Below the pieces are notes generated by a model. That model made no database searches. It saw nothing but the letters and a program-made list of their open reading frames with translations, and was not told where the DNA came from. The translations under genes and the position numbers were made by a program. Below, piece by piece: positions 7,114 through 62,447 of a stretch of DNA of 64,000 nt. The DNA comes from a virus. The DNA lies in IMG/VR virus record IMGVR_UViG_3300045988_129305, positions 25,078-89,077 of that record. One strand, written 5' to 3'. How positions within the stretch are numbered: position 1 is the stretch's first letter; every line of letters starts with the position of its first letter.

Positions 7114-7409
7114 TTAATTAGTCAGAAATGATTGAGGCTGCAACTAAATAATTTGGTTGAGTATATGGCGACATATATAATGAATGGGGTGAATTGCTGG
7201 GAAGCCCTTAGAGTCTTACATACCGAAGTGTGACAATTGTAAGAATTGGGTAATCAGCAGCTAAGCCAATATTGAGTTATTGGAAAGTCCAACGACTAAG
7301 ATTGAAATAATATCTGTAGGATTCAAGTGAGTCCGAAGTGCTCCATATCTATTGATAAATAGATAAAGATATAGTCTAAACTTATGTGAAAATATAAGAG
7401 GTGTTTATA

Positions 7410-8216
7410 ATGAGAAATAATAAATTAAAAGAAATTCAAGCATGGTGTGAAGGGCACAATATAAAACCCTATAATATTCGCAATGTTGTTCGAGGTGGCA
7501 AGACAGAAATAAAACTCACTTGTTCCTGTAAAGAATGTGGAGAGCGATACGATATTATGTGGTGTAGTTTGAAAGTCCAGACCTATCCGGGGCTATGTAC
7601 TAAATGTGCGCATAAGCGCTCTCAAGAAGGTCGCAGACTGTCGGCTCAAAAGGTAATAAGCTTGTTTGAAAAGTATGGCTACAAAGTCCTTACGCCTGTT
7701 GATAGAATTAAACCGATTGGTAAACAGCAGCTTTATAATAGGTCTATTGTTACGATTCAAGATAAATATGGAACTACTTATGATATATGTTGGAACAATT
7801 TTCACAATAGATTACAGTATTATCTTGATATAAACGATGGTGGACATTGTGCTGAGGGTGATAGAGATTTAAGTTGTTTAGAGCAAAAAGTAGCTGATTA
7901 TTTAGACGAATTGTGTATAAGTTATAAGCGCGAATTTAAGTTTTCTGATTGTCGTGGCAATAAAAGAATGTTGCCTTTTGATTTTTGCCTGAATTATGAT
8001 AAACCTAATAGGTTATTAATCGAAGCTGATGGGGAGCGACATTATAAAGAATATTTTGTTGAATTGCGCAAATATGATAAAATAAAAGATTATTATTGCA
8101 ACTCTCATAATATTCCCTTACTTAGAATCCCTTATTGGGAGTTCGACGATGATACTTACAAACAAAGTATAGATAATTTTATAAACACTAATAGTAGTAA
8201 CGATACTATTGAATAA
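7410..8216 (+). CDS. intron-encoded homing endonuclease, Vsr/PD-(D/E)xK (EDxHD-like) type with N-terminal zinc finger
   Basis: ATG 7410 after AAGAGGTG. CSCKECG..CTKC zinc finger. The C-terminal PFDFCL..LLIEADGERHY..IPLLRIPYWE matches the Vsr/DUF559-like nuclease core. It sits 3' of the intron P7 motif and ends 6 nt before the proposed 3' splice site. Confidence 0.75.
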   Translation: MRNNKLKEIQAWCEGHNIKPYNIRNVVRGGKTEIKLTCSCKECGERYDIMWCSLKVQTYPGLCTKCAHKRSQEGRRLSAQKVISLFEKYGYKVLTPVDRIKPIGKQQLYNRSIVTIQDKYGTTYDICWNNFHNRLQYYLDINDGGHCAEGDRDLSCLEQKVADYLDELCISYKREFKFSDCRGNKRMLPFDFCLNYDKPNRLLIEADGERHYKEYFVELRKYDKIKDYYCNSHNIPLLRIPYWEFDDDTYKQSIDNFINTNSSNDTIE

Positions 8217-35001: not shown

Positions 35002-35643
35002 TCATTCTACGAAATTCTTAAAATCTTTCCATTTAATTTTAACGATTATCCTATTGCCGAGTCGATCTTTCATTTCAACTTTGGGTCTACCAACAACACC
35101 TTCCATAGCCGCCTTACCAATTGTTGAATTATTATGTTGCATCACACAATCAATTCCATCGCCAATAGTACCTTCCAGTACAATAGGAACAACATCAACA
35201 TTAAACATCTTAGCCGTAGCTTCAACCCATTCACGAGACTGCCAATTATCGCCAATTAGTACATCAAATAAAATAAACGATACATCAGAACGATAATCGC
35301 CGCCATTCTGTATTTTAGCTCCATAGCCTTCACCGAATAGCATTACATCTTTCTCGCCATAAGTCTGTTCAAATAGCTCTTCAACTTCGGGCGTAAGAAA
35401 TGTTGCGCTCAGATAATCCATAAGATGCTTAGGAATCTGTGCCCTATCAGTTCTGCCACCAATTTCTACATTATGCCCATCCCAATGTATTCTAATATTT
35501 GTTCCATCAATCTTTTCTGTAAACTGCCAAATATTGTCAGCAAGATATTCAACAGTTTCATTTCGATAATCGCCCCAAATAAGTCTCTTATCACCATCTG
35601 TAGAACGATTAAATACCGTTTCTATCTTATGATATTCACGCAT
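35002..35643 (-). CDS. ATP-dependent RNA (or DNA) ligase, small KxDG nucleotidyltransferase
   Basis: 213 aa. EKIDGTNIRI (motif I lysine), FGEGYG (motif IV-like) and KIKWKD (motif V-like). Confidence 0.8.
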   Translation of the reverse strand: MREYHKIETVFNRSTDGDKRLIWGDYRNETVEYLADNIWQFTEKIDGTNIRIHWDGHNVEIGGRTDRAQIPKHLMDYLSATFLTPEVEELFEQTYGEKDVMLFGEGYGAKIQNGGDYRSDVSFILFDVLIGDNWQSREWVEATAKMFNVDVVPIVLEGTIGDGIDCVMQHNNSTIGKAAMEGVVGRPKVEMKDRLGNRIIVKIKWKDFKNFVE

Positions 35644-35810: not shown

Positions 35811-36021
35811 CAAACTTAAAATTCCTATTCTTATCTATTAGTTCTTTTAATTCAATATAAGGTTGCTTGCCACATATCTTACAAGTATATTCCCACGGCT
35901 TATCCATATCATATATTTCTTTACCAATAGGCATACCACAATAACGGCATTTTAGAGCCAATGATTTACCAAGTTTATCAGTTTTCTTGACTTTCTTTAG
36001 CCAATTTCTTGCTCTGCTCAT
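35797..36021 (-). CDS. zinc-ribbon protein
   Basis: 74 aa, CRYCGMP..CKICGK. Overlaps the PP-loop gene end by 44 nt. Confidence 0.55.
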   Translation of the reverse strand: MSRARNWLKKVKKTDKLGKSLALKCRYCGMPIGKEIYDMDKPWEYTCKICGKQPYIELKELIDKNRNFKFDENE

Positions 36022-37054
36022 TTTCTTTCTCCTTATACTTTATACGATATTCATCTCGTTTGGCTTCATCACCGTCATTCCACCACTTTACGTTGATGAA
36101 ATCAAGGACTTTAGCCATACCAAGCCCTTTGTCAGGAACCCATTTACCAGATTCATCGTAATTGCCACCACGCATACAATAGTCATAGAGTTGTGGGTGT
36201 GTTTGAGCAAGGGTTTGAAAACGGTTTGGTTCTTTCTCAAGATGACATCCATAACCACAAAATACACAACCAGTCCGTTTATAATCAGTAAAGTAAAGAA
36301 TCCCATTAGTTTCTTTTAGTTCACCATAGACAGGCGCATAAGATAGATTGTATTTTTGGATGTATCGCAATACATCCTGTTCTGTCCAAAAAGCCATTGG
36401 TGTAGATATGAGAGCTTTTAAGTTAAAAGCATTATAACCTTGCAATAGCCATTGTTTTTCTCGTCTTTCGCTTTCGCAGGTCATCACGGCTGTCATTGGG
36501 TGTAAGTTGGTTCTTTTGTAATAATGTTTTAATGGTTCTTTTTTCATTTTATTGCAACAATTATCCCCAATGTTAAAATCGGCACTGGCACAATAATGAT
36601 ATTTATTTGGGAGCTTCATAGTAGTAGCCTTTCGCCCAGTAGCGGTAATGCCAGTTAATCTTAATCGCCTAGTTTGTTCATTGTGAGATGTTGGATGTTG
36701 CAAGTCCCAAATCATACGAGAACATTGTTTAGATATTATAGGATAACCGAATTTTGTAATAACTTCTCCGAATATCATTTTAGGCTTAACGATTTCAATA
36801 TTATTAAAAGTTTTGACAAACGCTCGGATTTCTGGAAATTCAAGCCCAGTATCACTGAAAACGCCTAAAACATTAGGATATGTACGTCTTACTAAATCAA
36901 GTAATACAGTAGAATCTTTACCACCTGAAAAACTCACACACACTTCCCCATTCCAACTTTCATACCACTCAATTATCCGGGCGGTAGAAATCTGGATTTT
37001 TTCTTCAAGGGGCTTGGATTGTAGTTCTCTCAAATCATCTTTTGTATGGCTCAT
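35978..37054 (-). CDS. PP-loop ATP pyrophosphatase of the PAPS-reductase family (DndC/SspD/TtcA-like)
   Basis: 358 aa. VCVSFSGGKDSTVLLDLV (SGGKDS PP-loop) and a C-terminal Cys cluster RTGCVFCGYGCH. Confidence 0.85.
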   Translation of the reverse strand: MSHTKDDLRELQSKPLEEKIQISTARIIEWYESWNGEVCVSFSGGKDSTVLLDLVRRTYPNVLGVFSDTGLEFPEIRAFVKTFNNIEIVKPKMIFGEVITKFGYPIISKQCSRMIWDLQHPTSHNEQTRRLRLTGITATGRKATTMKLPNKYHYCASADFNIGDNCCNKMKKEPLKHYYKRTNLHPMTAVMTCESERREKQWLLQGYNAFNLKALISTPMAFWTEQDVLRYIQKYNLSYAPVYGELKETNGILYFTDYKRTGCVFCGYGCHLEKEPNRFQTLAQTHPQLYDYCMRGGNYDESGKWVPDKGLGMAKVLDFINVKWWNDGDEAKRDEYRIKYKEKENEQSKKLAKESQEN

Positions 37055-38136
37055 TTTACATACAACTCCTTAAAATTCTTAATACCTTCAACCAACGCCT
37101 CTACATCCTCAACGTTACTATCCTCGCCAAAGCTAACCCTAATAACCTCACTGGCTTCATCGTTATTCAGCCCATAGGCGTTTAGCACTCGATAATCATG
37201 CTTTTCAGCGCAAGCAGAACCACCAATAGATACATAGATTTGCTTAGATGCGAGGTACTGTTGGAGGGCATCTGCATTAAATCCGGGCAGACGAATGGCG
37301 TTGATTGCTAAAGCAAAAGGCTTGTCAGCTTCACTCGCCGGTACTGTTGGAATAAAACTATGTTTTATATTTGCTCTATCCAACTCTCTATCAAGTTCAT
37401 TAACTAAATTAAACCATTTGGTATCTCGTTCAATCAATGCTTCTTTATCGCAAACCTCCTCTACCGCTTGAGTCAAAGCCAATGCACCGGTAAGATTAGG
37501 TGTGCCGTGTAGCTTAAAACCATTGAGCCATTTGTCTAATCCATCAGAAATCCACATAGCACCAATGCCAAGCTCAGTGCCTAACTTATGACCGCTCCAA
37601 ACAGCACAGTCACACCATTGGTCGATGTTGGTCGGAATTGGGACTTTACCAATCATAGTTGTCATGTCACAGATGTAAAAAGCACTATACTCATGGCAAA
37701 GCTTGCCAATTTCTTCAACTGGAAAAACTTCACCCGTAAGATTGTTAACACCTTGCCATATCACAAACGACTGGTCATAACTTTCAGGGTCATTTTTATA
37801 AGCAATCAATAAATTTTTCATCCAGTTTATATTGTCGGACATATTGTCTGCATATCTAAAAAAACTATCATGTTCATAAACAGAGCACAAAACATTTCGA
37901 AAAAAAGTTTCCTCGTTGATAGCCGTCATCAAATTCTCAATCAACTGACTGCTCGTACCACCAAAAACAACCTTACCAGATTTGGCTCCAACGGCCTTTT
38001 TTATTCTATCCTCACACTTCTTTAACAGTTGCTTTTCCTTGTAAGCATAGTTGGCATTAACATTAAAAAACGAACCATAATTAGAGCAAGGATATTTAAC
38101 TTTAGGGCAAGCAGCGGCATAATCCAAATAAACCAT
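37051..38136 (-). CDS. cysteine desulfurase (class V aminotransferase, NifS/IscS-like)
   Basis: 361 aa. SGHKLGTELGIGAMWI (PLP lysine) and GGSACAE (catalytic Cys loop). 4-nt overlap with the PP-loop gene. Confidence 0.8.
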   Translation of the reverse strand: MVYLDYAAACPKVKYPCSNYGSFFNVNANYAYKEKQLLKKCEDRIKKAVGAKSGKVVFGGTSSQLIENLMTAINEETFFRNVLCSVYEHDSFFRYADNMSDNINWMKNLLIAYKNDPESYDQSFVIWQGVNNLTGEVFPVEEIGKLCHEYSAFYICDMTTMIGKVPIPTNIDQWCDCAVWSGHKLGTELGIGAMWISDGLDKWLNGFKLHGTPNLTGALALTQAVEEVCDKEALIERDTKWFNLVNELDRELDRANIKHSFIPTVPASEADKPFALAINAIRLPGFNADALQQYLASKQIYVSIGGSACAEKHDYRVLNAYGLNNDEASEVIRVSFGEDSNVEDVEALVEGIKNFKELYVK

Positions 38137-40073: not shown

Positions 40074-41474
40074 TTATATGTATATTTTTTGATTTTCTTG
40101 AGTACAAATTACTCTTGCTGATTTACCTTGAGATATAAGTTCGTCTTGTAGTGTATAGGCAAATTTTACTTTATCCTCATAATTACCATGTACTAATGCA
40201 ATCTTATTATATCGGCATTGATTGGCATAATAATCTATCAGCTCTTCATAACTGGCATGAGACGAAAATGAACGAAGTTCAGTAATATTTGCATTATTGG
40301 GTACCAATACACCATCAATCATTACCTCTTTTTGGCCAGATTTAATTTGGCTTGCAAGATTATTATCACCGGCATATCCAACAAATATAAGATGATTGTT
40401 TGAATGTGGTAGAGCTGTTTTAAGATGGTTTATTATCCTCCCACCTTGAAGAAATCCAGACGCGCTTATAATCACACAATGAGCATTAGATGCTTGTAAC
40501 AAAACAGATGATTCCCATGAATCAATAACTTTTAAATTATCCCAATGACTTATTTTATCCCATTCAAAAGAATCGGGCCAAATAGAATTGATTCTACTTG
40601 CTAATGGACTATCAAGATATACAGAGAACGGAAAAGCTAATTTGTTCCTATCCCAAAGATGATATAACACAGTCAATATCTCTTGAGTTCGGCCTAAAGA
40701 GAATGTTGGAATTAGTATCTTGCTATATGCGTTTATAATAGATACCAATTTTTCTTCATCTTTGGGACGGTCTTTTATATTATTAGGTCGAGCTGGGCTA
40801 TTATATGTATTTTCGCCTATTAGTACATCGATAAATGGCAATGATTGCTTATTATTAACATAAGGTCGAGATGCATTGCCACCTATATCACCAGTATATC
40901 CTACTCGTTTAGTTATATTACCCTCTTTCAATTCGACTATAACTTGTGCCGAGTTGATAATATGACCGGCTGGATAATAAGTAAAACTAATACAATTATT
41001 GATTTTATATGGTTTATTAAAATCAACTTCTATACATCTCATCAATGCCTTAGATATATCATTGGCTGAATAATATGGGCTTGCTTTACGTCCATGTTTA
41101 GCTTCTATCTTTTGGCAATCAGATGTAAGAATTTTTAAGCTATCATCCCATAATAATTTAAGGAAATCAACAGAGCCTTTAGGAACATATACATGAGCAT
41201 TACAGCCTTTAGCGAATAGAGCCGGTATAAGCCCACTATGATCTATATGCACATGAGATAAAATAATATAATCTATCTCATTGGCTTTAATTGATTCTAT
41301 TTGATTCTTATTAGCTTGCTATACCGATACTATATCGCCGCCTTGTACCATACCACAATCAAGAAGTAATGAATATTTCTTAAATCGCAAATGATGCATT
41401 GAGCCTGTTACATCAGTAGATGAGCCGCCTATCATGTGTAGATATGGCCGACTTGTGCCATTACCTTTTACCAT
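40074..41474 (-). CDS. metallo-beta-lactamase / beta-CASP nuclease interrupted by one in-frame TAG (41319-41321)
   Basis: ATG 41474 abuts the upstream stop (TAAATG). N-terminus MVKGNG..LLLDCGMVQGGDIVSV, then TAG, then QANKNQIESIKANEIDYIILSHVHIDHSG (HxHxDH). The track ORF begins only at GVG 41252 inside the HxHxDH motif. Confidence 0.75.
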
Positions 41475-59216: not shown

Positions 59217-60068
59217 TTACCATAACTCCTTTCTCATAGCATTTTCAACATCATCTTCAGACGATTTAATATATCTATTAGTTGTCTGTATATTACTATG
59301 TCCAAGCATATCACGAATAGTAGCTACATCAACGCCATTTTTATTAGCAATAGTAGCACACGCAGCTCTAAGCCAATGAGGACTGATTTCTTTCCAATAA
59401 CTCAATCCAGCCCTATATGCTATCTGCTTAAGACTCTTACAAGCATTAGCCTCATTTATAACATTACCTTCAAACGATTCAAACAACATGGTATGCTGAC
59501 GACCATTGGCAATTTCATCGGCTATATACTTATCTATATACATCATTGTTTTCTCATTGATATATATTTTACGTTGCTTATTGCCTTTACCTGTAATGAT
59601 TATATCATTAGTTTTACCAGCTCTAAATTCTTCATATTGTTTCATCGTAATGCTATTCATTTCGGCAAAACGAAGCCCAGTTGAAGCCAATATAGATATT
59701 ATTGCTCTTGCTCTCGGCGATTCAGTAGCGGCTATCATCTTAGATACATCCTTAGCCGTCATGCACTGTTTGACTTTAGGATTATTTTTGAGCTTTTTAA
59801 CTTTATCAAATGGATTATCATCAACCATATCCATATCTTCAAGCCAAACCCAATAGCTCTTTATAGCACTGAGCCGAAGATTGATGCTACTTGCACTCAA
59901 GCCAGTCAATGTAGCCTTATAACCAATCAATTCGGCATTGCCGATTTCTTCTTCAGGCTTATCGCAGAACCGCATAAACTCATTTATGTACTTAACATAA
60001 TTTTTTATTGTCTGCTCAGATTTCTTATCGGCTCTAAGTGATTTAATATACTGGTCTATTCTATTCAT
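59217..60068 (-). CDS. int: tyrosine recombinase / integrase (XerC/D-like)
   Basis: 283 aa. SAM-like N-domain, ..GLRFAE.., HWLRAACAT and LGHSNIQTTNRYI (R-H-R-Y catalytic set). Confidence 0.9.
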   Translation of the reverse strand: MNRIDQYIKSLRADKKSEQTIKNYVKYINEFMRFCDKPEEEIGNAELIGYKATLTGLSASSINLRLSAIKSYWVWLEDMDMVDDNPFDKVKKLKNNPKVKQCMTAKDVSKMIAATESPRARAIISILASTGLRFAEMNSITMKQYEEFRAGKTNDIIITGKGNKQRKIYINEKTMMYIDKYIADEIANGRQHTMLFESFEGNVINEANACKSLKQIAYRAGLSYWKEISPHWLRAACATIANKNGVDVATIRDMLGHSNIQTTNRYIKSSEDDVENAMRKELW

Positions 60069-60100
60069 TTTGTTTACCTCCCGCTCTTTATCTTGGTTAT

Positions 60101-60129
60101 ACTATATCACAGATATTTTTATTTGTCAA
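60101..60129 (-). promoter_or_regulatory. sigma-A-type promoter upstream of int
   Basis: On the - strand: TTGACA (60129-60124), 17 nt ending CTGTGA, TATAGT (60106-60101). Confidence 0.6.
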
Positions 60130-60134
60130 TAACA

Positions 60135-60179
60135 AAATGAGCAAATCCCTAAATTTTTTCTTAGAAGATTTGCTCATTT
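60135..60179 (-). terminator. rho-independent terminator closing the tRNA/ncRNA unit
   Basis: 13-bp perfect stem AAATGAGCAAATC (60135-60147) / GATTTGCTCATTT (60167-60179). On the - strand it is followed by TTTTGTTATT. Confidence 0.7.
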
Positions 60180-60231
60180 ATGAAAAGAAAGGAGGTGAAC
60201 AATGAAAGCTTCCCCACAAGCCATCACCGAC

Positions 60232-60313
60232 TGGAACGAGAACGAGGAATCGAACCTCAAAAATTATATACTAGAGTTCCTATGACTTATATATAACCCA
60301 CACCAGTTCTCGC
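60232..60313 (-). ncRNA. tRNA-like element A (canonical acceptor/T-arm/CCA, non-canonical anticodon arm)
   Basis: 82 nt. GCGAGAA(C) pairs with (G)TTCTCGT, T-arm GAGG-TTCGATT-CCTC, 3' TCCA. The central region gives only a 6-bp TATATA/TATATA stem with a 17-nt interior. No 5-bp stem with a 7-nt loop could be drawn. Confidence 0.45.
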
Positions 60314-60319
60314 ATATAA

Positions 60320-60434
60320 GCTCCATAATCAGAATCGAACTGATTTCCTCTCTCGGACTGTCTGTTATCATTAAAGAGCGACTTTAATGTTTTCTCACGA
60401 CCAATTAACAAGTATGCCCCTTACACCAATGGAG
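60320..60434 (-). ncRNA. tRNA-like element B (T-arm and 6-bp acceptor, about 115 nt, 8-bp central hairpin)
   Basis: CTCCAT pairs with ATGGAG. T-arm ATCAG-TTCGATT-CTGAT. Central hairpin CATTAAAG-TCGCT-CTTTAATG. No encoded CCA. Too long and irregular for a standard tRNA. Confidence 0.3.
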
Positions 60435-60759
60435 ATAACGCTACACTATCGTAGTAGCCAACGCTCATTGTTGTTCATCTACGCCTCGAATAAGGCTGTT
60501 TAGAATCAGAGATTCGATATTTGGTTAGATGCCTCTTGCATGAGTAGCTTGAGGTTAATTAGTCAAATTTCATCCATTAATCGCAATTAAATAGTATTGA
60601 CTAACTGCATTTGGCAATTACTGACAGACCAGCTTTACACTTATCTGCCCTCGGTTTGGCTGTGGAGAGGATGCCCAACATCATACACACAACTGTCTTG
60701 GTCACTTTCGTTGCCAATCTTTAGCTTAACGGACTAAAGATGAATCTCAGTAGATACCG

Positions 60760-60834
60760 TGGCGGGGGCAATAGGACTCGAACCTATAATGTTGGAGTCA
60801 AATTCCAATATGTTACCAATTACATCATACCCCT
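60760..60834 (-). tRNA. tRNA-Gln (anticodon UUG)
   Basis: 75 nt with encoded CCA. D-arm ATGT/ACAT with AATTGGTA loop, anticodon arm TTGGA-ATTTGAC-TCCAA, T-arm ATAGG-TTCGAGT-CCTAT. Discriminator G73 and an unpaired A1.C72, both consistent with Gln identity. Confidence 0.8.
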
Positions 60835-61365
60835 ATAGTTATTTTTTTTGCCCCAACCCCATAAATCGAATAGGCCAATGGTGCGCCCAAACATCTACCG
60901 TTCTGAATTGCCTTTAAGCGCTATTAGCACATTCAACCGGATAGACAGCCTTTTATCTATACGCACGTTCCCAATATAAAATTAACTATTTATTTCTCTC
61001 TGTAAATATTAAATAGTTGATTTGTTCAGTGCTCTTGGCCTTCGAGCTATCCTATGAAGTTGCTGTTCCCCAACTAATAGATTCCTTCACGTGCAATCTC
61101 ACGGTATAGTCTTGGCGTGTTTTAAGTGCTTCTTCTAATTCGCATTCACTATACTAACATCAGCACTATTTTAATTAGCCGTTAAGCTAAGTAAAACCAA
61201 TCAAGGAAGGTAAACCATATTTTCTCTAACCTATACAGAAATATGGAAAGAGGTTTATCATGTCTCGCCTGATTTTGAGCGGATAGTTTTAAGCTTTACT
61301 ATCAAAACTCCTTGTTTTTACCGTTTATAGGGTCGTTAAAACAAGTCAAAATCACACAGTCCCTT
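60835..61365 (-). ncRNA. 531-nt ORF-free spacer, candidate large structured RNA (family unknown)
   Basis: Lies between tRNA-Leu and tRNA-Gln inside one promoter-to-terminator unit. No ORF of 60 aa or more on either strand apart from a tRNA-antisense artefact. Several 6-8-bp hairpins by eye (61214-61246, 61281-61304, 61310-61346). Confidence 0.35.
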
Positions 61366-61450
61366 TGGTGCGGAATATGGGACTCGAACCCATAAGCCTT
61401 ACGGCATCCGAGCTTAAATCGGATGTGTTTCCCAGTTTCACCAATTCCGC
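61366..61450 (-). tRNA. tRNA-Leu (anticodon UAA), class II
   Basis: 85 nt with encoded CCA. Acceptor GCGGAAT/ATTCCGC, anticodon arm TCCGA-TTTAAGC-TCGGA, long variable arm TGCCGTAAGGCTT, T-arm ATGGG-TTCGAGT-CCCAT. Confidence 0.9.
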
Positions 61451-61463
61451 TCATTTCATCGAT

Positions 61464-61492
61464 ATTATATCACACAATTTTTATTTTGTCAA
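61464..61492 (-). promoter_or_regulatory. consensus sigma-A promoter directly upstream of tRNA-Leu
   Basis: On the - strand: TTGACA (61492-61487), 17 nt ending TGTGA, TATAAT (61469-61464). The predicted start is about 7 nt before the tRNA 5' end. Confidence 0.75.
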
Positions 61493-61583
61493 GAGGAAAT
61501 TTTATTTTCCAGAACTTTTATTTCTCACTGTGCCATCCACCGCTTTATCATGACAAGAACTTTATTTCCTCTTGACATCATGC

Positions 61584-61612
61584 ATTATAACATATCAATT
61601 TTGGTTTGTCAA
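61584..61612 (-). promoter_or_regulatory. second consensus sigma-A promoter in tandem
   Basis: On the - strand: TTGACA (61612-61607), 17 nt, TATAAT (61589-61584). Confidence 0.7.
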
Positions 61613-61633
61613 GCATTATTTTTAGAAATTTTA

Positions 61634-61804
61634 TTAGCACCAATAATGTGTACTAATTTTGCCATATCTTTCTGGATGTAACCGATTATTCTCATAACTG
61701 TTATGCTTATCAACTATATAAATAAGCAGACAACATATAAACAATACCAGAATTGTAATCCCAAATATTGCCCCAAAAATTATTTCCATTGCTGTCGGTG
61801 CCAT
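61634..61804 (-). CDS. small membrane protein (56 aa, not in the track)
   Basis: ATG 61804 after AAGAAGGATGG. MAPTAMEIIFGAIFGITILVLFICCLLIYIV.. First gene after promoter 61835-61863. Confidence 0.5.
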   Translation of the reverse strand: MAPTAMEIIFGAIFGITILVLFICCLLIYIVDKHNSYENNRLHPERYGKISTHYWC

Positions 61805-61834
61805 TTAACCATCCTTCTTTACTTTGTTAATTGA

Positions 61835-61863
61835 ATTATATCACATCAAATTCAATTTGTCAA
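61835..61863 (-). promoter_or_regulatory. consensus sigma-A promoter
   Basis: On the - strand: TTGACA (61863-61858), 17 nt ending TGTGA, TATAAT (61840-61835). Confidence 0.7.
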
Positions 61864-61872
61864 TACTAAATT

Positions 61873-62076
61873 TTACATTCTTCCCACTATTTTATGTCGA
61901 GCTATATTTCTATATGATTCAACGGTATTGGCATTAAGTTGTTTAATCCGAATATCAGAATTTATAGCATCCAGTTTAAACCTATAATCTTTGTATTCAC
62001 CGCAAACACCATGGCATCCTACAGCTCGATTAGTGCAATTAGCGCACGGTATATTAAGCCCATATTTAGATTTCAT
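61873..62076 (-). CDS. Cys-rich small protein
   Basis: 67 aa, CANCTNRAVGCHGVCGEY. Confidence 0.55.
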   Translation of the reverse strand: MKSKYGLNIPCANCTNRAVGCHGVCGEYKDYRFKLDAINSDIRIKQLNANTVESYRNIARHKIVGRM

Positions 62077-62198
62077 TATTTGCCATCCTTTATAAAATTA
62101 CTATAATTTTATCTCTAAAATCAATTCTAATTTTTAACGTCAAATTATATTATTTATATATTATCGAACGAAATAGAATCAATTTTATACTAAAATAA

Positions 62199-62447
62199 TC
62201 AATGATTTTTAGCTTCTCTTGCCTTTTGCAATCTCTCTTTTGCTGCTTGGCGCTGTTCTTCTGTCATCTGCCGTTTCGATCTTGATTTATTAACGCCAGT
62301 TCGCATCATATATAATGGACAATGTTCATCTACACACGATCTAACATCGGCAGAATTATAACCACAACACTCCAAACAAAATTCCTTTATTGCCGATAGC
62401 GGACTTGTCGGTCTGTCATGTCCATTCCTCAGTTTGATTTCATTCAT
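62199..62447 (-). CDS. zinc-finger protein (C..CC...C....CPLY family)
   Basis: 82 aa. FCLECCGYNSADVRSCVDEHCPLYMMR plus a basic tail. A motif common in prophage early regions (from memory). Confidence 0.65.
   Translation of the reverse strand: MNEIKLRNGHDRPTSPLSAIKEFCLECCGYNSADVRSCVDEHCPLYMMRTGVNKSRSKRQMTEEQRQAAKERLQKAREAKNH

What the first reader, a model, noticed from the sequence alone, without database searches (positions are those of the whole stretch)
60232..60434. Two adjacent tRNA-like elements with normal acceptor and T arms but elongated, non-decoding central arms
Element A (82 nt) has a 7-8-bp acceptor stem, a TTCGATT T-loop and an encoded CCA. Element B (about 115 nt) has a 6-bp acceptor and a perfect T-arm. 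Where the anticodon arm should be, both carry a long AT-rich helix: A has 6 bp TATATA/TATATA plus an AGT/ACT extension with loop CATAGGA, and B has 8 bp CATTAAAG/CTTTAATG with a 5-nt loop. No 5-bp stem with a U33-containing 7-nt loop could be drawn. Possible roles:
- decoys or substrates for tRNA-targeting host defences;
- tRNA-mimic modules of the larger RNA;
- degenerate tRNA 3' halves acting as attP next to the integrase.
Element A contains CTCTAGT, a CUA-containing heptamer. That is intriguing given the in-frame TAG at 41319, but it does not fold as an anticodon loop.
Basis: seen in the sequence. Interest (0 to 1): 0.65.

Follow-up and report, generated by a model that had tools for sequence, protein, structure and literature searches.

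The report
Two irregular tRNA-like genes in phage
Two real but misshapen tRNA-derived genes close a phage's tRNA and non-coding RNA operon; one is a conserved leucine-type tRNA look-alike, the other a strain-specific tRNA broken by a 31-base insertion, and neither looks able to decode normally.

Summary
Both elements lie on the minus strand: A at 60313→60232 (82 nt, encoded CCA) and B at 60434→60320 (115 nt, no CCA). Each has a tRNA-type acceptor/T-arm stack. That signature occurs 4 times in the window (two real tRNAs, A and B) against 0.01 per shuffled window.

Default ARAGORN and the Rfam tRNA model miss both. They are the last two cassettes of a roughly 1.35-kb operon that runs from a promoter to a terminator and also holds tRNA-Leu(UAA), tRNA-Gln(UUG) and conserved structured RNA modules.

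A is a divergent class-II, Leu(UAG)-type irregular tRNA:
- its loop is C-A-UAG-G-A, with no U33;
- its anticodon stem is 3 bp plus a bulge;
- its discriminator is U or G, not A;
- it prefers one long AU-rich central hairpin.

A is kept in three close lineages, and every stem substitution preserves pairing. ARAGORN does call the ortholog in one of them.

B is a cloverleaf with a 31-nt hairpin insertion in its anticodon loop. It is absent from all relatives.

In other relatives the same slot holds ordinary tRNA-Thr or tRNA-Gln. No host tRNA 3' half matches either element, so an att-site role is not supported. The decoy role remains untested. The amber-suppressor idea is structurally unlikely but not excluded.

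The parts
60232..60313 (-). Element A. An 82-nt irregular class-II-like tRNA-Leu(UAG)-type gene. Acceptor 60313-60307 / 60242-60236. T arm 60259-60243. Heptaloop C-A-UAG-G-A 60284-60278. Long AU-rich central hairpin 60299-60261. Discriminator U at 60235. Encoded CCA 60234-60232.
   Evidence: Orthologs are L001 3755-3836 and L015 2255-2336. A covariance model of A finds tRNA-Leu(UAA) as its best non-self match.
60320..60434 (-). Element B. A 115-nt tRNA-derived cassette. Acceptor 60434-60429 / 60326-60321. D arm 60426-60412. Anticodon stem 60410-60406 / 60367-60363, enclosing 38 nt (60405-60368) that contain the hairpin 60389-60369. An 18-nt variable region 60362-60345. T arm 60344-60328. Discriminator C at 60320. 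No CCA.
   Evidence: B is absent from L001, L002, L005 and L015 as a clean 122-nt indel.
60314..60319 (-). A 6-nt spacer (UUAUAU) between B and A.
61464..61492 (-). Operon promoter: TTGACA, 17 nt, TG-TATAAT. It matches 12 of 12 consensus positions and sits about 14 nt upstream of tRNA-Leu. It is identical in relatives.
61366..61450 (-). tRNA-Leu(UAA), the first cistron of the operon.
60760..60834 (-). tRNA-Gln(UUG), a middle cistron.
60440..60562 (-). Conserved non-coding block 2, directly upstream of B (window) or of A (relatives). It is 95% identical to L001.
60137..60177 (-). Hairpin with 13-nt perfect arms followed by a T-tract. It ends the operon and is conserved, together with the recombinase gene, down to relatives with 60% identical integrases.

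Best explanation
**What they are.** A and B are tRNA-derived cassettes at the 3' end of a roughly 1.35-kb non-coding operon in an 89-kb phage of an anaerobic, low-GC host. The operon starts at the promoter at 61492 and ends at the terminator hairpin at 60177-60137. Its order is tRNA-Leu(UAA), structured RNA modules, tRNA-Gln(UUG), conserved block 2, B, then A.

**How they are made (inferred).** Both keep the 12-bp acceptor/T-arm stack, a canonical UUCGAUU T loop and a G-rich D region. These are the features that RNase P and the 3'-maturation enzymes recognise. The inferred pathway is:
- both are cut out of the transcript as tRNA-shaped RNAs;
- A's 3' end is made by trimming back to its encoded CCA;
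- B's 3' end is made by RNase Z followed by CCA addition;
- excising them also trims the neighbouring RNA modules.

**Why they are not ordinary decoders.**
- A descends from a class-II Leu(UAG)-type tRNA. It has A33 or C33 instead of U33, an AU-only anticodon stem of 3 bp plus a bulge, no A73 and no A14. Its D and variable regions can zip into one long hairpin.
- B carries a 31-nt hairpin insertion in its anticodon loop, lacks CCA, and exists only in this genome.

**Most likely reading.** A is a retained, processed, irregular tRNA that does not decode, or decodes only poorly. B is a recently acquired or decaying pseudo-tRNA.

**Shown versus inferred.** The anatomy, operon context, cassette behaviour and absence of host matches are shown. 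Processing and lack of decoding are inferred.
For: - **Minihelix signature.** It is far beyond chance and is confined to this array.
- **Operon.** Consensus promoter and terminator frame the array, and there is no long ORF at 60100-61600.
- **Standard tools.** They fail on both window copies.
- **Rescue by deletion.** A is rescued to a called tRNA-Leu(UAG) by deleting one nucleotide. B is rescued by deleting the 31-nt insert.
- **Ancestry of A.** A's covariance model matches tRNA-Leu(UAA) best, at 27.8 bits and E=2e-5.
- **Conservation of A.** Three variants of A exist (window, L001 type, L015). All four varying stem pairs stay paired: 1-72 G.U to G-C, 49-65 U.G to U-A, 50-64 G-C to A-U, and 27-43 U-A to U.G.
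- **Folding of A.** The minimum-energy fold is a minihelix plus one long central hairpin, at -18 to -21 kcal/mol. The cloverleaf scores -6 to -8.5 kcal/mol.
- **B is strain-specific.** It is absent from every relative.
- **Cassette slot.** The same slot holds canonical tRNA-Thr or tRNA-Gln in L011 and L014.
- **Family pattern.** Other irregular CCA-ended tRNAs occur across the phage family.
Against: - **Weak comparative evidence.** There are only three close sequences. 169 of 500 shuffles reach the same covariation score. The cloverleaf and long-hairpin models fit the variants equally well.
- **No special conservation.** A is no more conserved than its non-coding flanks, which are 92-95% identical.
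- **A may be functional as a tRNA.** Default ARAGORN accepts the L015 ortholog as tRNA-Leu. C33 also occurs in an otherwise clean tRNA-Gln(UUG) of the L001 lineage. Non-U33 may therefore be an adaptation rather than decay.
- **No direct data.** There are no expression, processing or charging data. B has no comparative data at all.
Confidence: 0.55

Rival explanations
1. A is a working irregular decoder. On this reading it is charged and used for CUN (or other) codons. Its non-U33 loop and unusual stem make it resistant to a host anticodon nuclease, as proposed for phage tRNAs with anticodon-loop mutations.
For: - The heptaloop C-N-UAG-G-A with G37 is otherwise a good Leu(UAG) loop.
- The L015 ortholog is called by default ARAGORN.
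- C33 recurs in a clean cloverleaf tRNA-Gln(UUG) of the L001 lineage.
- The irregular Leu(UAA) with a 6-nt T loop shows compensatory changes between L001 and L015.
- The phage encodes an RNA ligase.
- The literature supplies the concept (PMC10264068).
Against: - The discriminator is U, G and U in the three variants, not the A73 that LeuRS needs (established identity rule).
- The anticodon stem is 3 bp plus a bulge, and the U8-A14 pair is missing.
- The cloverleaf is about 12 kcal/mol worse than the long hairpin.
- The Rfam tRNA model gives no hit at E<=1 to 10.
- CUA makes up only 8% of Leu codons.
Confidence: 0.17
2. A, and possibly B, are tRNA mimics that act as decoys or sponges. The target would be a tRNA-directed host defence or a tRNA-binding enzyme.
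For: - The acceptor/T elbow is intact while the anticodon domain is abnormal but conserved.
- tRNA repair and replacement themes are present in the genome: an RNA ligase and a tRNA array for U34 anticodons.
Against: - There is no direct evidence.
- Relatives with 86% and 60% identical integrases carry ordinary tRNAs in this slot.
- B is found in a single genome.
- No defence-related partner was identified.
Confidence: 0.12
3. A and B are purely processing punctuation. On this reading their only role is to recruit RNase P and RNase Z, which define the ends of the adjacent conserved RNA modules and the 3' end of the operon RNA.
For: - In relatives, block 2 abuts A with a 4-nt spacer.
- Every relative ends the operon with some CCA-bearing tRNA or tRNA-like element before the same hairpin.
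- Only the minihelix varies, and it varies with pairing preserved.
Against: - A's central 45 nt are at least as conserved as the minihelix: 2 changes against 5. Pure punctuation would not require this.
- The sample is too small to be sure.
Confidence: 0.1
4. A is the phage attachment site, meaning the 3' half of a host tRNA used by the adjacent tyrosine recombinase.
For: - A lies 165 nt upstream of the recombinase gene, in the same orientation.
- Its centre is an AT-rich palindrome (pair I1).
Against: - The T-loop-to-acceptor segment of A (21 nt) and of B (22 nt) has no exact match in 185,579 species genomes.
- A has its own complementary 5' acceptor strand.
- Close integrase relatives have unrelated tRNAs in this slot.
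- The element that does travel with the recombinase is the 13-nt-arm palindrome at 60137-60177.
Confidence: 0.04
5. A is an amber suppressor. The heptamer CUCUAGU would present the anticodon CUA and read through the TAG in the beta-CASP gene.
For: - From that heptamer onward, A's 3' half has canonical spacing.
- L001 has CUCUGG, a Gln-like CUG, at the same place.
- The window has a single in-frame TAG, at 41319-41321.
Against: - No stem can close that heptamer. It lies in the 3' strand and bulge of the central helix.
- L015 also has CUCUAG.
- The TAG corresponds to TAT (Tyr) in relatives and is the only such case, so there is no recoding.
Confidence: 0.02

Closest known systems
[quoted passage not shown] 2017, NAR, PMC5389517)
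   Same: - These are tRNA-shaped genes missed or mis-scored by standard tools, found through weak tRNA-Sec model matches.
- They have a 12-bp acceptor/T branch that can be drawn 8/4.
- They occur in polycistrons with normal tRNAs, including in phages and rumen Clostridia.
- Some are suspected not to be used in translation.
   Different: - A lacks the long D stem with tetraloop, the 6-bp anticodon stem and the stable V-arm of allo-tRNAs.
- The L015 variant favours a 7/5 arrangement over 8/4.
- A lacks U33.
- B's 31-nt loop insertion has no counterpart there.
Phage tRNA arrays with anticodon-loop variants proposed to escape anticodon nucleases (van den Berg et al. 2023, eLife, PMC10264068)
   Same: This is a phage-encoded tRNA cluster whose anticodon loops depart from the norm. 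A has A33 or C33, and a sister tRNA-Gln has C33.
   Different: Those tRNAs are otherwise canonical cloverleaves and are compared with known host nucleases. Here the stem is also defective and the host and any nuclease are unknown.
Phage T4 stable RNAs 'species 1 and 2' (RNA C and D) in the T4 tRNA cluster (from my own knowledge, not checked here)
   Same: They are small stable RNAs of unknown function. They are co-transcribed and co-processed with phage tRNAs and have tRNA-like termini.
   Different: No sequence relationship was tested, and no Rfam model matched.
tRNA-like processing modules (the tmRNA tRNA-like domain, MALAT1 mascRNA; from my own knowledge)
   Same: They have acceptor and T arms that recruit RNase P and the CCA machinery. 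A long helix stands where the anticodon arm would be.
   Different: - There is no tag reading frame, and ARAGORN's tmRNA search finds nothing.
- A and B are free-standing cassettes. They are not the ends of one long RNA.

Membership tests
Canonical bacterial elongator tRNA (Rfam RF00005 / ARAGORN) | 7-bp acceptor stem, plus a 5-bp T stem with a T-psi-C-type 7-nt loop | tested here: met
   A has 7 bp (G1.U72) and TGAGG/CCTCG with loop TTCGATT. B has 6 bp plus a U.U mismatch and ATCAG/CTGAT with loop TTCGATT.
Canonical bacterial elongator tRNA (Rfam RF00005 / ARAGORN) | 5-bp anticodon stem closing a 7-nt loop with U33 | tested here: not met
   A has 3 bp plus a bulge or two mismatches, with loop C-A-UAG-G-A (C33 in relatives). 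B's 5-bp stem closes 38 nt.
Canonical bacterial elongator tRNA (Rfam RF00005 / ARAGORN) | Detection at the curated or default threshold | tested here: not met
   There is no RF00005 hit even at E<=10, nor in relatives. Default ARAGORN misses both window copies. It does call A's ortholog in L015.
Bacterial class-II tRNA-Leu | Discriminator A73 (the major LeuRS identity element; established knowledge) | tested here: not met
   Position 73 is U (window), G (L001) and U (L015).
Bacterial class-II tRNA-Leu | Long variable region, 3-bp D stem and a Leu anticodon | tested here: inconclusive
   A has a 13-nt variable region without a stable stem. Its D stem is G.U/U-A/G.U, and UAG sits in the loop. 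The best non-self hit of A's covariance model is tRNA-Leu(UAA), at 27.8 bits.
tRNA-Sec (RF01852) | Gathering score of 47 bits, UCA anticodon, and a 13-bp acceptor/T branch | tested here: not met
   Scores are 16.5 bits (window) and 19.8 bits (L001). There is no UCA in the loop, and the branch is 12 bp.
allo-tRNA (8/4 or 9/3; Mukai 2017) | 8/4 or 9/3 split of the acceptor/T branch | tested here: inconclusive
   The C8-G71 pair is predicted at P=0.98 in the window and L001 copies. In L015, G71 becomes A. That breaks the pair and creates U55-A71, giving a 7/5 arrangement.
allo-tRNA (8/4 or 9/3; Mukai 2017) | Long D stem with tetraloop, long anticodon stem, and a stable long V-arm | tested here: not met
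   None of these can be drawn for A or B.
tmRNA | tRNA-like domain plus a tag reading frame, detected by ARAGORN's tmRNA search | tested here: not met
   ARAGORN searching for tRNA and tmRNA finds none. There is no Rfam tmRNA hit at E<=10.
Y RNA / YrlA | Match to the Rfam models. The ends lie in the Ro-binding stem and the tRNA-like domain is closed by a loop. | tested here: not met
   There is no hit at E<=10. In A and B the ends lie at the acceptor stem.
Intron-containing tRNA (group I, or archaeal bulge-helix-bulge) | A self-splicing group I core, or a 3-nt bulge / 4-bp helix / 3-nt bulge motif at the insertion | tested here: not met
   B's insert is 31 nt and gives no Rfam intron hit. By inspection, only a 2-nt bulge on one strand can be drawn. 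The promoter and Shine-Dalgarno signals are bacterial.
attP overlapping a host tRNA 3' half | Identity block with a host tRNA 3' end | tested here: not met
   AGGTTCGATTCCTYGTTCTCG and CAGTTCGATTCTGATTATGGAG each have 0 exact matches in genome contigs. The limit of this test is that the host could be unsampled.
attP overlapping a host tRNA 3' half | The site co-varies with its integrase | tested here: not met
   Relatives with 86% and 60% identical integrases have tRNA-Thr and tRNA-Gln in the slot instead.

The most novel reading that the evidence does not exclude
This phage family may maintain a set of deliberately irregular tRNAs. The irregularities seen are non-U33 anticodon loops, 6-nt or non-T-psi-C T loops paired with GG-less D loops, and long-arm tRNA mimics such as A. 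On this reading the set works with the phage RNA ligase as a counter-measure to host tRNA-targeting nucleases. A would then be either a nuclease-proof decoder or a decoy that soaks up the nuclease, not a decaying gene.
Probability: 0.15. Interest if true: 0.7.

Novelty: new variant of a known kind. Interest (0 to 1): 0.4.

Why it matters
Phage tRNA arrays are now read as weapons against host tRNA-cleaving defences. Annotation pipelines, however, silently drop anything that is not a clean cloverleaf.

This locus shows that a rare family of 85-100-kb phages carries several conserved tRNA-shaped genes that are invisible to those tools. One of them has no U33 and a single long central arm. If such RNAs are processed and stable, they are candidates for nuclease-resistant decoders, decoys or processing signals, and they offer a concrete test bed.

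If they are only decaying cassettes, they document fast turnover of tRNA genes inside a fixed operon scaffold.

Tried and rejected
**Searches that found no further relatives**
- GenBank phages: blastn gave no match for A or B, even at E<=1.
- IMG/VR: exact-pattern scans for A, B and the two conserved blocks returned only the same two contigs, or a chance hit inside a coding region.
- Metagenome contigs: an integrase-based scan gave only one more contig of the L001 type and two distant ones without the array.
- Exact-protein look-ups: these recovered the window's own source contig, 100% identical, so B has no variants.

**Hypotheses tested and rejected or unsupported**
- Host match (att site): two genome-contig scans found nothing.
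- Amber suppression: the TAG at 41319 is TAT in relatives and is the only in-frame TAG, so there is no recoding. The CUA heptamer cannot be closed into a loop.
- Known large phage RNAs (GOLLD, ROOL), tmRNA and Y RNA: no Rfam hit at E<=10 across 59900-62200.
- Homology of A or B to the canonical tRNAs of relatives: none by global alignment.
- Repeats of B's insert: it occurs only once in the window.

**Methodological dead ends**
- A loose version of my minihelix null model gave 2.4 hits per shuffle and was uninformative. I replaced it with the strict version.
- Covariation statistics on three sequences cannot separate the cloverleaf from the long-hairpin fold.

Full report
**Check of the observation**

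The finding's coordinates hold two tRNA-like elements, both on the minus strand.

Element A runs from 60313 to 60232 (82 nt):
- acceptor stem GCGAGAA/UUCUCGU;
- T arm UGAGG-UUCGAUU-CCUCG;
- discriminator U and an encoded CCA;
- an AU-rich centre with the loop CAUAGGA.

Element B runs from 60434 to 60320 (115 nt):
- acceptor stem CUCCAU/AUGGAG;
- T arm AUCAG-UUCGAUU-CUGAU;
- no CCA.

Default ARAGORN and Rfam at gathering scores report only tRNA-Gln(UUG) at 60760-60834 and tRNA-Leu(UAA) at 61366-61450. With Rfam relaxed to E<=10, A gives only a sub-threshold tRNA-Sec match (16.5 bits against 47 needed). B gives nothing. No tmRNA, Y RNA, GOLLD or ROOL match appears.

I tested the elements against chance with a strict minihelix signature: a G-TTCRANY-C loop, a 5/5 T stem and at least 6 Watson-Crick acceptor pairs. 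It occurs four times in the window, namely the two tRNAs, A and B. It occurs 0.01 times per dinucleotide-shuffled window. The elements are real and derive from tRNA.

**Refinements to the anatomy**

B is a nearly complete cloverleaf:
- D arm GUGU-AAGGGGC-AUAC;
- a regular 5-bp anticodon stem, UGUUA/UAACA;
- an 18-nt variable region.

The anticodon stem encloses 38 nt instead of 7. Deleting 31 nt in any of several registers makes default ARAGORN call a tRNA. The resulting anticodon is ambiguous (AAU, UAU, UGU, UGG or UUA).

A becomes a default-callable tRNA-Leu(UAG) when one bulged C is removed from the 3' strand of its anticodon stem. As it stands, the stem is 3 bp plus a bulge. The loop is C-A-UAG-G-A, so position 33 is A rather than U.

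Thermodynamically, A prefers the acceptor/T minihelix plus one long central hairpin (11 bp plus 2). That fold scores -18 to -21 kcal/mol, against -6 to -8.5 kcal/mol for the cloverleaf.

**Genomic context**

The window is part of an 89,061-bp metagenomic phage contig. The phage encodes:
- its own DNA polymerase III alpha subunit, an anaerobic ribonucleotide reductase, and RecD-like and RecJ-like proteins;
- a tail tape-measure protein and a lysin;
- an RNA ligase.

The stretch 60100-61600 has no long ORF. It begins with a perfect TTGACA-17-TGnTATAAT promoter at 61492-61464 and ends at a hairpin with 13-nt perfect arms and a T-tract at 60177-60137. That hairpin runs straight into the recombinase gene's own promoter.

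A and B are therefore the last two cistrons of a non-coding operon. Its order is tRNA-Leu(UAA), conserved structured modules, tRNA-Gln(UUG), conserved block 2, B, then A.

**Relatives**

Few relatives exist in the collections searched.
- The L001, L002 and L005 lineage has a 95% identical integrase.
- L015 has a 97% identical integrase.

Both lineages keep A at the same place, and both lack B as a clean 122-nt indel. B is known only from the window's own genome.

The three variants of A differ at seven positions:

| Position | Window | L001 | L015 |
|---|---|---|---|
| loop position 33 | A | C | C |
| stem position 43 | A | G | A |
| pair 50-64 | G-C | A-U | A-U |
| pair 49-65 | U.G | U.G | U-A |
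| pair 1-72 | G.U | G-C | G-C |
| discriminator 73 | U | G | U |

Every stem change keeps or improves pairing. With three close sequences this is only suggestive. 169 of 500 shuffles reach the same score. The cloverleaf and the long hairpin fit the variants equally well.

Default ARAGORN calls the L015 copy tRNA-Leu(tag). The Rfam tRNA model still does not. A covariance model built from A finds the window's tRNA-Leu(UAA) as its best non-self match (27.8 bits, E=2e-5), followed by tRNA-Gln. It does not find B.

**Cassette behaviour**

More distant relatives were reached through integrase homologs. They keep the same operon end: a hairpin, an anti-Shine-Dalgarno-like CACCUCCUUUC, the terminator palindrome and the recombinase promoter. 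The slot that A occupies holds something different in each:
- L011 (integrase 86% identical): a canonical tRNA-Thr(UGU) with CCA;
- L014 (60%): a canonical tRNA-Gln(UUG);
- L012: another irregular CCA-ended element.

Across the family the arrays hold Leu(UAA), Gln(UUG), Thr(UGU) and Ile(UAU) tRNAs, together with further irregular tRNAs:
- a Leu(UAA) with a 6-nt T loop, which shows compensatory stem changes between L001 and L015;
- a clean-cloverleaf Gln(UUG) with C33 and T loop GGCAGUA;
- Gln and Leu tRNAs whose T loops read RGCNNNR and whose D loops lack GG.

A and B are irregular members of a family-wide, fast-turning cassette array.

*Att site.* The T-loop-to-acceptor segments of A and B have no exact match in 185,579 species genomes. 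A carries its own 5' acceptor strand. The slot's content does not track the integrase. The element that does track it is the palindrome at 60137-60177. The att reading is not supported.

*Amber suppression.* The TAG at 41319-41321 interrupts a beta-CASP/metallo-beta-lactamase gene in frame. It is TAT in relatives and is the only in-frame TAG in a gene. The CUCUAGU heptamer cannot be closed into a loop, and it is also present in L015. This reading is unlikely.

*Modules of a larger RNA.* The operon does contain conserved structured modules; one hairpin has three compensatory pairs. A and B nevertheless behave as exchangeable cassettes.

*Decoys.* This could not be tested here.

**Most likely mechanism**

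Both elements keep exactly what RNase P, RNase Z or 3' exonucleases, and the CCA-adding enzyme recognise. They are probably excised as tRNA-shaped RNAs, and that excision also trims the flanking modules.

A is probably not a normal decoder, and is unlikely to accept leucine. It lacks:
- U33;
- a 5-bp anticodon stem;
- A14;
- the A73 that LeuRS needs.

B is disrupted and has no CCA, whereas every other array member encodes CCA. It looks like a recent or decaying pseudo-tRNA.

I give this reading 0.55. The main rivals are a nuclease-resistant irregular decoder (0.17), a decoy (0.12) and pure processing punctuation (0.10).

**Comparison with known systems**

The closest described things are the irregular tRNAs, allo-tRNAs and 'polycistrons of irregular tRNAs' of Mukai et al. 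(PMC5389517). Phage tRNAs with anticodon-loop variants come next (PMC10264068).

A fails the defining features of allo-tRNA, tRNA-Sec, tmRNA, Y RNA and canonical tRNA-Leu. B fails those of intron-bearing tRNAs.

I file the finding as a new variant of a known kind, namely irregular tRNA-like genes in a phage tRNA array. Interest is moderate. It would rise if processing, stability or a link to host defence were shown.

Noticed in passing
window 61195-61362 (minus strand); L001 3108-3282, L015 1503-1797, L012 2003-2232, L014 2355-2582: Conserved structured non-coding modules lie directly after tRNA-Leu(UAA) in all relatives. One hairpin (CCUCUUUCC-AUAU-UUCUG...AGAGAAA-AUAU-GG) has three compensatory pairs in L015. 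By eye, two more helices covary: CCAUUG/CAAUGG against CUUGUUUU/AAAACAAG against CCACUU/AAGUGG, and GAUAGU/ACUAUC against CGCGAU/AUCGUG. There is no Rfam match. This may be a new phage ncRNA flanked by tRNAs.
   Followed up: partly
L001 3000-3410; L015 1415-1505 and 1859-1934; L011 70-143; L012 1916-2002, 2408-2478, ~2487-2540 and ~2764-2828; L014 2268-2354: Relatives carry further irregular CCA-ended tRNAs. They include a Leu(UAA) with a 6-nt T loop (GUCGAA) and compensatory stem changes, a Gln(UUG) with C33, and T loops of the form RGCNNNR paired with D loops lacking GG (altered elbows). There is also a 49-nt acceptor/T-arm minihelix without an anticodon arm. ARAGORN and Rfam disagree on several of these.
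   Followed up: partly
window 41319-41321 (minus strand), gene 40074-41474: A single in-frame TAG splits a beta-CASP/metallo-beta-lactamase nuclease gene. Relatives L008 and L009 have TAT (Tyr) there. It is the only in-frame TAG in a gene of this window. It could be a nonsense mutation, an assembly error or local read-through.
   Followed up: yes
window 60137-60177 and 60101-60129: A hairpin with 13-nt perfect arms, extendable to about 17 nt around a 7-nt A-rich centre, is followed by a T-tract. It overlaps the -35 box of the recombinase promoter. It is conserved with the XerC/D-like recombinase down to relatives with 60% identical integrases. It is a terminator and might also be the recombinase's target site.
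   Followed up: partly
window 60186-60197 (minus strand); 60190-60286 (plus strand): The minus-strand RNA downstream of A contains CACCUCCUUUCU. This is the same as the Firmicute 16S rRNA 3' tail, i.e. an anti-Shine-Dalgarno sequence, and it is partly held in a conserved hairpin. It could mask the recombinase ribosome-binding site on read-through transcripts. On the plus strand the same sequence reads as a perfect Shine-Dalgarno plus ATG. The ORF it opens is not conserved: 27 codons here and 5 in L001.
   Followed up: no
window 35002-35643, 35978-37054, 37051-38136 (minus strand): The phage encodes an RNA ligase (PF09414, phrog_548). It also has an adjacent pair of a PAPS-reductase-like (PP-loop) protein and a class-V aminotransferase/cysteine-desulfurase-like protein. 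Such a pair suggests thiolation of nucleic acid (tRNA or DNA).
   Followed up: partly
window 7136-7398 (plus strand): Rfam finds a group I intron (79.6 bits, E=1e-18) just upstream of ORF 7401-8216, in the structural gene region.
   Followed up: no
window 60721-60732 and 61179-61190: A 12-nt perfect inverted repeat (TTAGCTTAACGG / CCGTTAAGCTAA) sits 446 nt apart. It brackets the window-specific part of the operon that contains tRNA-Gln. It could be a long-range RNA helix or the ends of an inserted cassette.
   Followed up: no
window-wide codon usage: ATA makes up 47% of Ile codons (545 codons), yet this genome has no recognisable tRNA-Ile(UAU). A distant relative (L021) encodes one. One deletion register of B would give a UAU anticodon.
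   Followed up: partly
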